Positions 7,363-7,818 of a stretch of DNA of 21,382 nt are shown piece by piece. The notes under the pieces were generated by a model, which had not been told where the DNA came from, searched no databases, and saw nothing but the letters and a program-made list of their open reading frames with translations. The position numbers and the translations under genes were made by a program. This DNA is from a virus (lineage: Duplodnaviria > Heunggongvirae > Uroviricota > Caudoviricetes), in IMG/VR virus record IMGVR_UViG_2874962485_000007; one strand, 5' to 3'. Within the stretch, counting starts at the first letter, position 1, and each line of letters starts with the position of its first letter.

Positions 7363-7541
7363 TTTCTCTTTCCTTTCATCACCGAAGTGAACTTTGTTGA
7401 TGCGGTGCCTGGTGCCTCCAGGTGACGTTAACCAGTTAACAATTACAGTTGGCTTTCCCACCCAAACCAATAAGGACTAACATGACTTTTAACTGTGCCG
7501 CGTGCGCATAGCCGCATTCACCGCATCACAAAATTCACTTT

Positions 7542-7598
7542 AAAAAGGGCGGACATCAGCCAGCAATTAAACCGATGCCGCCAACTGGTACTTCACAC
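7542..7598 (-). ncRNA. dicF: DicF-like small RNA candidate
   Basis: Minus-strand sequence ...CCAGUUGGCGGCAUCGGUUUAAUUGCUGGCUGAUGUCCGCCCUUUUUA has a GC-rich imperfect hairpin followed by a U5 run. It resembles E. coli DicF as recalled from memory and sits downstream of the dicA-like and small ydf-like genes on the same strand, as in the K-12 dicB operon. Confidence 0.4.
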
Positions 7599-7813
7599 AG
7601 CAATGTCGTTATTTACAACCGGAAGCGCACTCCCACCATTTAAATTTCACAGACAAGACCGACTCTTTATGGATACCGGAAATGCGCCTTCGTGTTGTGC
7701 CCGGTTTTATTTCACCACTTCCGGGCTTTGGTGGTATCTTTACTGAAGTTCTCACACAACCAGTAAGGAAATGAATATGCCAACGTATCTCGCCAGAGTA
7801 GAACTATATAATG

Positions 7814-7818
7814 CTGAG
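7814..7818. repeat. IS2 target-site duplication CTGAG (left copy; right copy at 11857..11861)
   Basis: Identical 5-bp direct repeat immediately flanking both IS2 termini. Confidence 0.85.

What the first reader, a model, noticed from the sequence alone, without database searches (positions are those of the whole stretch)
7541..7818. DicF-like sRNA candidate separated from its operon by a 4-kb IS2/IS66 insertion
On the minus strand a GC-rich hairpin plus U5 (3' end about 7542) with a preceding sequence resembling DicF lies downstream of the dicA-like and small ydf-like genes, as in the E. coli dicB operon. The IS2 with nested IS66 (7819..11856) is inserted between the small genes and this RNA, so any operon transcript from the 12502..12649 promoter must cross 4 kb of IS sequence. 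A Rha-family gene (6514..7362) sits where dicB would be expected. DicF-dependent control of cell division may therefore be uncoupled or silenced here.
Basis: partly seen in the sequence, partly recalled or inferred. Interest (0 to 1): 0.55.

Follow-up and report, generated by a model that had tools for sequence, protein, structure and literature searches.

The report
KilS-type prophage small RNA, not DicF
The hairpin is real, but it belongs to a rare variant of the Rac-prophage small RNA KilS, not to the cell-division inhibitor DicF; it keeps its own promoter region on the near side of the IS insertion and carries part of the target-pairing sequence of the host small RNA RprA.

Summary
The sequence features are all confirmed. 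There is a terminator hairpin plus U5 ending at 7542 (minus strand). IS2 (7819-9107 + 11815-11856) carries a nested IS66-family element (9108-11806), each with a clean target duplication. A DicA-like repressor and a DUF1391 gene lie upstream and a Rha-family gene downstream. The DicF label is only partly right. Rfam's DicF model gives 28.6 bits against a threshold of 48 (K-12 dicF: 76.7), and the loop that pairs with ftsZ is replaced. A covariance model built only from K-12-type KilS sequences hits 7636->7542 over its full length (63.1 bits, E about 1e-12) and misses true dicF loci. In K-12, KilS is northern-verified and has its own mapped start site. The equivalent promoter region here lies 180 nt on the RNA's side of the IS and has one substitution, at -12. 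So the IS cuts off the upstream operon and splits a plus-strand ORF, but not the RNA's own promoter region. New observation: KilS carries the exact 16-nt pairing block of processed RprA (AUUGCUGUGUGUAGUC). This allele keeps 11 nt of it and still matches the validated csgD site. The allele is rare (5 of 5426 E. coli genomes) and unannotated. No expression data were available.

The parts
7542..7636 (-). KilS-family small RNA, allele 'type C' (95 nt from the position equivalent to the K-12 KilS start site to the end of the U5 tail)
   Evidence: A covariance model built only from K-12-type KilS sequences hits 7636->7542 at full length, 63.1 bits, E about 1e-12. The first 43 nt differ from K-12 KilS at one position. 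Fold z = -2.07.
7643..7651 (-). Candidate extended -10 promoter of the RNA (TG at 7651-7650, hexamer GAAATT at 7648-7643; K-12 has TAAATT)
   Evidence: Alignment to the K-12 kilS upstream region. The K-12 start site at 1418502 was mapped (PMC8175672 Supplementary Table 6). The motif TGTnAAATTTAAATGG occurs only upstream of type B and type C hairpins. Activity here is inferred, not shown.
7594..7604 (-). Remnant of the RprA-type pairing block (AUUGCUGUGUG, 11 of the 16 nt shared by KilS and RprA); the position equivalent to the KilS RNase E site is about 7605
   Evidence: Duplex with the validated csgD site I is -21.0 kcal/mol (11 + 4 bp), matched by 0 of 300 shuffles.
7548..7582 (-). Terminator hairpin with a DicF/KilS-type stem (GGCGGCAUC...GAUGUCCGCC) and an allele-specific loop UUUAAUUGCUGG
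   Evidence: The stem is kept in 91.6% of cells across 17 variants, against 27-68% when the 3' partner is slid; covariation is weak.
7542..7546 (-). U5 tail of the intrinsic terminator
7393..7541 (-). Conserved leader shared with the dicF-dicB and kilS-kilR intergenic regions (sub-threshold STnc100 match)
7819..9107 (+). IS2, left part (orfA and orfB on the + strand, antisense to the operon)
9108..11806 (+). IS66-family element nested in IS2 (2699 bp; three ORFs on the + strand; duplication TGTAATGG at 9100-9107 and 11807-11814)
   Evidence: It is absent from the otherwise identical IS2 in loci L007 and L014.
11815..11856 (+). IS2, right end (42 bp)
7814..7818 (.). IS2 target-site duplication CTGAG (second copy at 11857-11861)
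7771..7818 (+). First 16 codons of the 98-aa plus-strand ORF split by IS2 (the rest is at 11857-12110); it sits where sieB sits in K-12 Rac
   Evidence: The intact ORF is present in IS-free relative L001 at 7048->6752. It matches phrog_8894, function unknown, at 130 bits, and has no Pfam match.
12087..12447 (-). Small early-left genes upstream of the IS: DUF1391 (YdfA/YdaF-like, 12447->12292) and a 70-aa ORF (12299->12087, phrog_30817)
12650..13057 (-). DicA-like HTH repressor
   Evidence: 62% identity to K-12 DicA, no similarity to RacR.
6514..7362 (-). Downstream module at the dicB/kilR position: promoter-like site 7346-7318, isrK-like RNA 7311-7235, C4-like antisense RNA 7210-7123, and the Rha/antirepressor-type protein

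Best explanation
The element at 7636->7542 (minus strand) is a rare allele of KilS. KilS is the Hfq-associated small RNA encoded in front of kilR in prophage Rac. Here it sits in a mosaic Rac/Qin-like cryptic prophage of a Shigella flexneri-type genome. The RNA has three modules. (1) A KilS leader, preceded by what is most likely its own extended -10 promoter. (2) A single-stranded arm that in K-12 KilS is the exact 16-nt pairing block of processed RprA (AUUGCUGUGUGUAGUC); this allele keeps 11 nt of it and then diverges. (3) An intrinsic terminator whose stem and downstream flank are homologous to those of DicF but whose loop is different. Proposed mechanism (inferred): transcription starts about 95 nt upstream of the U tail and stops at the hairpin. 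RNase E cleavage near 7605 would expose the arm at the 5' end of a roughly 64-nt species. That species would pair with RprA-type targets such as csgD site I or yncL, not with ftsZ. The hairpin would also limit read-through into the next module (isrK/C4/Rha), which has its own promoter. The IS2 insertion is shared with S. flexneri-type loci; the IS66 insertion into it came later. Together they cut the early-left operon and split a plus-strand ORF, but lie about 180 nt outside the RNA's own promoter region. Shown: homology, anatomy, IS junctions, seed identity, complementarity. Inferred: promoter activity, processing, Hfq dependence and targets in this host.
For: KilS identity: a model built only from type-B KilS sequences hits 7636->7542 at full length, 63.1 bits, and does not hit K-12 or Tritos dicF. 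There is 1 difference in the first 43 nt and 2 in the 130 nt upstream. The promoter/leader motif occurs only with hairpin types B and C. K-12 KilS is northern-verified, with a start site at 1418502 and an RNase E site at 1418471 (PMC8175672). Not DicF: 28.6 bits against a threshold of 48, with 76.7 for the K-12 control and 39.1 for K-12 KilS. The ftsZ-pairing loop and the 5' arm are replaced. RprA-type seed: an exact 16-mer is shared by KilS nt 33-48 and RprA nt 60-75, and none of 2000 shuffles reached 16. RprA60-105 is the known processed form, and nt 60-97 and 45-75 pair with csgD and ydaM with compensatory-mutation proof (PMC3465796). yncL is the RIL-seq partner of KilS and also an RprA target in both TRIC-seq and RIL-seq (10.1101/2025.09.11.675593). 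The window allele pairs with csgD site I at -21.0 kcal/mol, matched by 0 of 300 shuffles; the DicF-arm control gives -8.3. IS anatomy, and IS-free relatives with the same allele.
Against: There are no expression data for this allele in any host. The -12 base of the candidate -10 hexamer is G here, as in 6 of the 8 type-C loci that carry the motif, whereas 26 of the 29 type-B loci have T; this could weaken the promoter. The seed is truncated: 5 of the 16 nt are lost, including a U-to-A change inside the helix. The targets were tested against K-12 sequences, not the unknown host genome, and I recall that Shigella strains often lack intact curli genes (not tested here). Energy-only target scans with whole RNAs had no discriminating power, even for the validated DicF-ftsZ pair, so the pairing argument rests on the short validated sites. 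Covariation in the stem is weak. The RIL-seq support for KilS in K-12 is thin (3 interactions, PMC8175672).
Confidence: 0.62

Rival explanations
1. One reading: a functional DicF orthologue (ftsZ translational repressor) that depends on the operon promoter and has been silenced by the 4-kb IS insertion.
For: It occupies the same slot in a dicA/ydfA-type operon. The stem base, U tail and downstream flank are shared with dicF. The Rfam DicF model aligns end to end. True DicF does depend on dicBp (PMC10448788).
Against: 28.6 bits against a threshold of 48. The anti-Shine-Dalgarno core of the loop and the 5' arm are replaced. Co-folding gain with the ftsZ leader is -6.3 against -16.3 kcal/mol for DicF. 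The KilS model fits at full length and excludes dicF. A KilS-type promoter region lies between the IS and the RNA.
Confidence: 0.06
2. It acts only in cis, as an intrinsic terminator or attenuator of the early-left transcript in front of the kil-position gene. Any short RNA would be a by-product with no trans-acting role, and the loop differences would be neutral.
For: The conserved parts are the stem and U tail, while the loop is free to vary. The hairpin types track the downstream gene, as simple linkage would predict. K-12 KilS has only 3 RIL-seq interactions.
Against: The leader and arm, which a terminator does not need, are 96% conserved across the family. The arm is an exact copy of a validated RprA pairing block and shares RprA's partner yncL. 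DicF, built on the same scaffold, is a proven trans-acting RNA.
Confidence: 0.2
3. It is a decaying relic: the locus sits in an IS-riddled cryptic prophage, the promoter is weakened and the seed damaged, so the RNA is neither made nor used in this host.
For: T-to-G at -12 of the -10 hexamer. The seed is truncated. There are at least four IS copies within 10 kb. The adjacent ORF is split by IS2.
Against: The same allele is 100% identical over 66 nt in 5 E. coli genomes, and all 8 type-C hairpins among the fetched loci (which include S. flexneri-type and viral contigs) are identical. The allele-specific loop motif AUUGCUG recurs in related variants with other 5' contexts. The changes are a clean cassette swap with no intermediates, not scattered decay.
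Confidence: 0.12

Closest known systems
KilS (E. coli K-12 prophage Rac, b4833; Bar et al. 2021, PMC8175672)
   Same: Same promoter/leader motif and same first 43 nt (1 difference). Same RNase E-site context. Same stem (GGCGGCAUC...GAUGUCCGCC), U5 tail and downstream leader. Full-length 63.1-bit match to a KilS-only model.
   Different: The 3' end of the arm (UAGUCCU becomes AAGUACCAGUU) and the whole loop (AGUUUUUUUCUUGAAGUUCGG becomes GGUUUAAUUGCUGG) are replaced. The gene downstream is an isrK/C4/Rha antirepressor module, not kilR. The repressor upstream is DicA-like, not RacR. The -12 base is G, not T.
DicF (prophage Qin; Rfam RF00039)
   Same: Homologous terminator stem base, U tail and about 150 nt of downstream flank. 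Same slot after dicA-like and ydfA-like genes. Part of the upstream leader (GUGCGCUUCCGGUUGU) is shared.
   Different: Below the Rfam threshold (28.6 against 48). The ftsZ-pairing loop and the xylR/pykA-pairing 5' arm are absent. [quoted passage not shown] No dicB follows.
RprA (core enterobacterial sRNA; Rfam RF00034)
   Same: K-12 KilS shares RprA nt 60-75 exactly (AUUGCUGUGUGUAGUC), plus AACGA just upstream. In both RNAs the block sits directly 5' of the terminator and at the 5' end of the processed species, and both have yncL as a partner. The window allele keeps AUUGCUGUGUG, including the GCUG validated against csgD.
   Different: There is no overall homology. The RprA model gives 28.1 bits on K-12 KilS against a threshold of 70, and no hit with E up to 10 in the window. 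The terminator is different, the RprA nt 28-45 pairing region (which pairs with csgD site II) is missing, and the genomic location differs. I recall that this part of RprA also pairs with the rpoS leader; I did not check that here.
P1 immI / Gifsy-1 isrK-anrP antirepressor modules (neighbour of the RNA, not the RNA itself)
   Same: The module directly downstream has a promoter-like site, an isrK-like RNA (61.5 bits) and a C4-like RNA (75.7 bits), followed by a Rha/antirepressor-type protein.
   Different: It is a separate transcription unit that occupies the dicB/kilR position. No link to the KilS-type RNA was found: no complement of the loop exists elsewhere in the window.

Membership tests
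DicF (Rfam RF00039) | Reaches the curated gathering score of the DicF covariance model (48 bits) | tested here: not met
   28.6 bits, seen only in the sensitive local scan. Positive control K-12 dicF scores 76.7; K-12 KilS scores 39.1.
DicF (Rfam RF00039) | 3' region/loop complementary to the ftsZ ribosome-binding site (AGUUUUACUCCG pairing with CGGAGAGAAACU) | tested here: not met
   At the aligned positions ACUCCG is AAUUGC. Co-folding gain with the ftsZ leader is -6.3 against -16.3 kcal/mol for DicF. Shuffle-controlled scans had no discriminating power.
DicF (Rfam RF00039) | 5' arm UUUCUGGUGACGUUU, used for xylR and pykA pairing | tested here: not met
   The window has GUGUGAAGUACCAGUU at the aligned positions.
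DicF (Rfam RF00039) | Rho-independent terminator GGCGG...CCGCC plus U5, followed by the conserved flank AAAGUGAAUUUUGUGAUG | tested here: met
DicF (Rfam RF00039) | Lies between ydfABC-type genes and dicB in a DicA-controlled operon, and is made only by processing of the dicBp transcript | tested here: inconclusive
   DicA-like and DUF1391 genes are upstream. No dicB is downstream. How the RNA is made cannot be tested from sequence (PMC10448788).
KilS (prophage Rac sRNA) | Full-length match to a covariance model built from K-12-type KilS sequences only | tested here: met
   63.1 bits, E about 1e-12, model positions 1-97 of 97, at 7636->7542. dicF loci are not hit at E up to 1.
KilS (prophage Rac sRNA) | Own promoter and start site directly upstream (K-12: TGTTAAATT, start site 1418502) | tested here: inconclusive
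   The motif is present at 7651-7643 with T-to-G at -12. The start site was mapped only in K-12. Activity here is not testable with these tools.
KilS (prophage Rac sRNA) | Complete 16-nt arm AUUGCUGUGUGUAGUC | tested here: not met
   Only the first 11 nt are kept, followed by A-AGU-ACC.
KilS (prophage Rac sRNA) | Forms the 5' UTR of kilR | tested here: not met
   Downstream is the isrK/C4/Rha module. Type B is followed by KilR in 28 of 28 loci; type C is followed by Rha in 7 loci and DicB in 1.
KilS (prophage Rac sRNA) | Hfq-associated, detectable as a roughly 98-nt RNA | not testable with these tools
   Shown only for K-12 (PMC8175672).
RprA (Rfam RF00034) | Reaches the curated gathering score (70 bits) | tested here: not met
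   No RprA hit with E up to 10 in 7050-7900. K-12 KilS scores 28.1 bits. The similarity is confined to the pairing block.

The most novel reading that the evidence does not exclude
KilS-family RNAs may be prophage-borne mimics of processed RprA: an RprA pairing block fused to a DicF-type terminator scaffold. Through them, Rac-like prophages would tap into the host's RprA regulon (csgD, dgcM, yncL). On this reading the arm and loop of the scaffold are exchangeable specificity cassettes. At least six discrete hairpin types occupy one slot and recombine with different 5' arms. The window's rare allele would then be a retuned version: the RprA core AUUGCUG appears twice, once in the arm and once in the terminator loop.
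Probability: 0.3. Interest if true: 0.65.

Novelty: new variant of a known kind. Interest (0 to 1): 0.4.

Why it matters
For annotation: this slot in lambdoid prophages is usually read as 'DicF', but only one of at least six hairpin types passes the DicF model. The others, including K-12's own KilS, have no Rfam family and go unannotated outside K-12. Counts of 'DicF copies' in E. coli and Shigella genomes, and inferences about ftsZ control drawn from them, can therefore mislead. For biology: the exact identity between the KilS arm and the validated pairing block of processed RprA, together with the shared partner yncL, makes a concrete hypothesis testable. The hypothesis is that a cryptic prophage carries a copy of a core sRNA's seed and can act on biofilm and envelope-stress targets. 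For this locus: the IS insertions are ordinary prophage decay, and they most likely do not by themselves silence the RNA.

Tried and rejected
1. Energy-based target prediction with whole RNAs (duplexfold, cofold, and 20-nt sliding windows against the ftsZ and yncL leaders with shuffle controls). Even the validated DicF-ftsZ pair gave z about -0.4, so the method cannot discriminate. I dropped it in favour of position-by-position comparison and short validated target sites. A first version of the scan timed out.
2. A local target for the allele-specific loop: the complement AGCCAGCAATTAAACC with up to 3 mismatches occurs in the window only at the loop's own position.
3. STnc100 as an identity for the downstream leader: 29.9 bits against a threshold of 47 here, and 28 bits in K-12 Rac, so it is not a member.
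4. Covariation as proof of structure: only 2 pairs change on both sides, which is not beyond shuffles. The stem is supported by conservation and by the slid-partner control only.
5. Faubladier & Bouche 1994 (PMC205167), which I recall as describing dicF-like sequences in other prophages, is not held. Nothing is taken from it.
6. RacR-type immunity: the repressor shows no similarity to RacR.
7. Pfam gave nothing for the ORF split by IS2; PHROGs gave only a family of unknown function.

Full report
OBSERVATION. On the minus strand a G+C-rich hairpin is followed by CGCCCUUUUU, with its 3' end at 7542. The terminator scan reports a stem at 7579-7552. RNAfold places the hairpin at 7582-7548 and U5 at 7546-7542. 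The whole-window Rfam scan at gathering thresholds finds no DicF. It finds sok (17118-17293), a C4 antisense RNA (7210-7123) and isrK (7311-7235). A sensitive scan of 7050-7900 shows the DicF model aligned end to end at 7597->7547, but at 28.6 bits against a gathering score of 48. K-12 dicF scores 76.7 in the same kind of scan.

THE IS INSERTION. Alignment with the closest IS-free relative (E. coli VL40, locus L001, 98.5% identical) gives a clean junction with a 5-bp duplication. IS2 is 7819-9107 plus 11815-11856 (1331 bp; duplication CTGAG at 7814-7818 and 11857-11861). An IS66-family element of 2699 bp (9108-11806; duplication TGTAATGG; ends GTAACCGGCTC and GAGCCGCTTAC) is nested 49 bp from the IS2 end. 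All five transposase ORFs are on the plus strand, antisense to the operon. IS2 sits at the same site in two other loci: L007 (Shigella flexneri SFBU1023) and L014 (a record titled E. coli, from the same coordinates of a 4.44-Mb genome). Neither has the nested IS66. So IS2 came first and is shared, and the IS66 insertion is later. Three other loci with the same RNA allele have the site intact. What IS2 directly splits is a 98-aa plus-strand ORF (7771-7818 plus 11857-12110; phrog_8894, function unknown). That ORF occupies the position that sieB has in K-12 Rac.

CONTEXT. Upstream on the minus strand lie a DicA-like repressor (13057->12650; 62% identical to K-12 DicA and unrelated to RacR), a DUF1391 gene (12447->12292) and a 70-aa ORF. 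Downstream lies a Rha-family ORF, followed in the relative by ydaE, recE, xisR and intR, which is a Rac-type backbone. The prophage is therefore a mosaic of Qin-type immunity and Rac-type early-left genes.

WHAT OCCUPIES THE SLOT. A pattern taken from the conserved 3' stem and flank retrieved 13 genome loci and 120 viral-contig loci. At this slot there are discrete hairpin types:
- Type A, classic DicF, about 80 loci.
- Type B, about 28 loci.
- Type C, the window's type: 8 identical copies plus near variants.
- Types D, E and F.
The stem base GGCGG/CCGCC, the U tail and the flank are constant, and the loop and 5' arm differ as blocks. Type A is mostly followed by dicB (70 loci). Type B is always followed by kilR (28 of 28). 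Type C is mostly followed by the Rha module (7 loci). Only type A passes the Rfam DicF threshold. Across 17 distinct hairpins the stem is kept in 91.6% of cells, against 27-68% when the 3' partner is slid, but covariation is weak.

IDENTITY: KilS. K-12's own Rac prophage has an annotated ncRNA, kilS (b4833, 98 nt), between sieB and kilR. Its 3' end is the type B hairpin plus U5. The window matches K-12 kilS almost perfectly outside the hairpin's arm and loop. There is 1 difference in the first 43 nt of the RNA, there are 2 in the 130 nt upstream, and none in the first 40 nt downstream. I built a covariance model from nine distinct type B sequences only. It hits the window at exactly 7636->7542, over the full length, at 63.1 bits and E about 1e-12. 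It does not hit K-12 dicF or phage Tritos dicF at E up to 1. Rfam has no KilS family: on K-12 KilS the best Rfam match is the DicF model, at 39.1 bits. Within the KilS-leader family, variation is concentrated in the arm and loop (majority fraction 0.81-0.85 against 0.96-0.98 elsewhere). Types B and C are discrete alleles with no intermediates. The type C 66-mer is identical in only 5 of 5426 complete E. coli genomes and is annotated in none.

DOES THE IS UNCOUPLE IT? KilS is different. [quoted passage not shown] Their Supplementary Table 6 lists a start site at 1418502 (the KilS 5' end) and an RNase E site at 1418471 (PMC8175672). The K-12 sequence upstream of that start reads TGTTAAATT, an extended -10 by my reading. 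The window reads TGTGAAATT at 7651-7643, and the IS begins at 7819, about 180 nt further upstream. This motif is found only upstream of types B and C. Type B has T at -12 in 26 of 29 loci. Of the 8 type C loci that carry the motif, 6 have G and 2 have T. So the promoter region is retained but may be weaker. Its activity here is not shown.

NOT AN ftsZ REGULATOR BY THE DicF ROUTE. K-12 DicF pairs with the ftsZ ribosome-binding site through its 3' region (PMC5069750). [quoted passage not shown] At the aligned positions the window has AAUUGC in place of ACUCCG. The co-folding gain with the ftsZ leader is -6.3 kcal/mol, against -16.3 for DicF. Shuffle-controlled energy scans could not separate even the validated pair from noise, so I give them no weight.

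AN RprA-TYPE SEED. In the sensitive Rfam scan of K-12 kilS, the RprA model gave a weak overall hit (28.1 bits against a threshold of 70) but with an identical block. KilS nt 33-48 and RprA nt 60-75 are the same 16-mer, AUUGCUGUGUGUAGUC, preceded in both by AACGA and followed directly by each RNA's terminator. None of 2000 shuffles reached 16; the maximum was 13. Several independent observations fit this:
- The known RprA processing product is RprA60-105.
- RprA nt 60-97 pair with csgD site I, and nt 45-75 pair with ydaM.
- The csgD CAGC(-87 to -90) exchange is suppressed by the complementary change in RprA, and CAGC is the complement of the GCUG inside this block (PMC3465796).
- The RNase E site of KilS falls 1 nt before its copy of the block.
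- yncL, the RIL-seq partner of KilS, is also listed among RprA targets common to TRIC-seq and RIL-seq (10.1101/2025.09.11.675593).
Bar et al. do not mention RprA, and I found no paper in the held library describing an RprA-like prophage RNA. On csgD site I the duplex energies are -24.2 kcal/mol for RprA60-79 (15 perfect pairs), -25.6 for KilS33-52, and -21.0 for the window's arm (11 + 4 pairs, one mismatch). For each of these, 0 of 300 shuffles do as well. The DicF 5' arm gives -8.3, and 93% of its shuffles do as well. The window allele keeps AUUGCUGUGUG (7604-7594) and then diverges (A-AGU-ACCAGUU). The core AUUGCUG occurs a second time in its terminator loop (7567-7561). Related loop variants in other 5' contexts keep the same core.

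VERDICT. But the element is a KilS-family allele, not DicF. It most likely has its own promoter on the near side of the IS, and nothing points to ftsZ control. The most likely mechanism is an Hfq-dependent small RNA that ends at a DicF-type terminator and presents a shortened RprA-type seed after RNase E processing. All functional steps in this host are inferred. The locus itself is ordinary prophage decay. The wider observations are the parts worth following up: one slot holds many cassette-like alleles, and KilS carries RprA's seed.

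Noticed in passing
window 7042-7362 (minus strand): The annotated-style Rha CDS (7362->6514; longest ORF from 7470) reads straight through two strong Rfam RNA matches: isrK at 7311-7235 (61.5 bits) and C4 antisense RNA at 7210-7123 (75.7 bits). The Pfam Phage_ASH match (74 bits, residues 50-143) covers the same DNA. A promoter-like TTGAAA-17-TATAGT (7346-7318) ends just before the isrK start. Either the protein start is annotated too far upstream, or one stretch serves as both RNA and protein. 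The Pfam family may partly rest on translated RNA genes.
   Followed up: partly
L139 1906-2003 (K-12 kilS) and L141 232-247 (K-12 rprA): An exact 16-nt identity, AUUGCUGUGUGUAGUC, links KilS nt 33-48 and RprA nt 60-75. In both RNAs it sits at the 5' end of the processed species and directly before the terminator. I did not find it reported in the papers held.
   Followed up: yes
window 7561-7567 and 7598-7604 (minus strand): The 7-nt core AUUGCUG occurs twice in the RNA, once in the single-stranded arm and once in the terminator loop. Loop variants in other loci keep it (L058/L085 CAUUGCUGG, L129 UAUUGCUGG, L020 GAUUGCUGA), even where the KilS-type arm is absent.
   Followed up: partly
L011/L025 (type E), L117, L020, L115, L129: Recombinant forms exist. 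The classic DicF 5' arm occurs with a non-DicF loop (type E). The KilS leader occurs with a DicF-like stem and another loop (L117, 65.1 bits with the KilS model). This suggests that arm and hairpin are exchanged as modules.
   Followed up: partly
window 2611-3874 and 4801-6064: Two inverted copies of a 1264-bp IS3-family element, each with a 100-aa and a 272-aa ORF. The size matches IS600, and IS600 is annotated in recE of relative VL40. They flank a roughly 900-bp segment, and both are present in the S. flexneri-type locus L007.
   Followed up: no
window 17118-17293 (plus strand): A full-length sok antitoxin RNA match (117 bits) with a 70-aa ORF starting at 17231, indicating a hok/sok-type toxin-antitoxin locus in the prophage. 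The same family was seen in loci L006 and L115.
   Followed up: no
window 7393-7535 (minus strand); L139 1723-1909: The conserved leader between the hairpin and the kil-position gene gives sub-threshold STnc100 matches (29.9 and 28 bits against a threshold of 47) in both the window and K-12 Rac. This stretch is about 80% identical across the dicF-dicB, kilS-kilR and window loci, and its role is unknown.
   Followed up: no
L016 (JARKOR010000130.1) and L012 (JAFAEO010000035.1): Contigs from metagenome bins labelled 'Candidatus Nanosynbacter sp.' and 'Proteobacteria bacterium' carry the exact 29-nt Escherichia prophage pattern. They are probably mis-binned enterobacterial prophage contigs.
   Followed up: no
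L004 2230-2260 (K-12 Qin) compared with window 7620-7636: The K-12 dicF precursor shares the KilS-leader segment GUGCGCUUCCGGUUGU about 150 nt upstream of DicF, followed by roughly 130 nt that are absent from the kilS loci. So dicF and kilS loci share ancestry beyond the terminator.
   Followed up: partly
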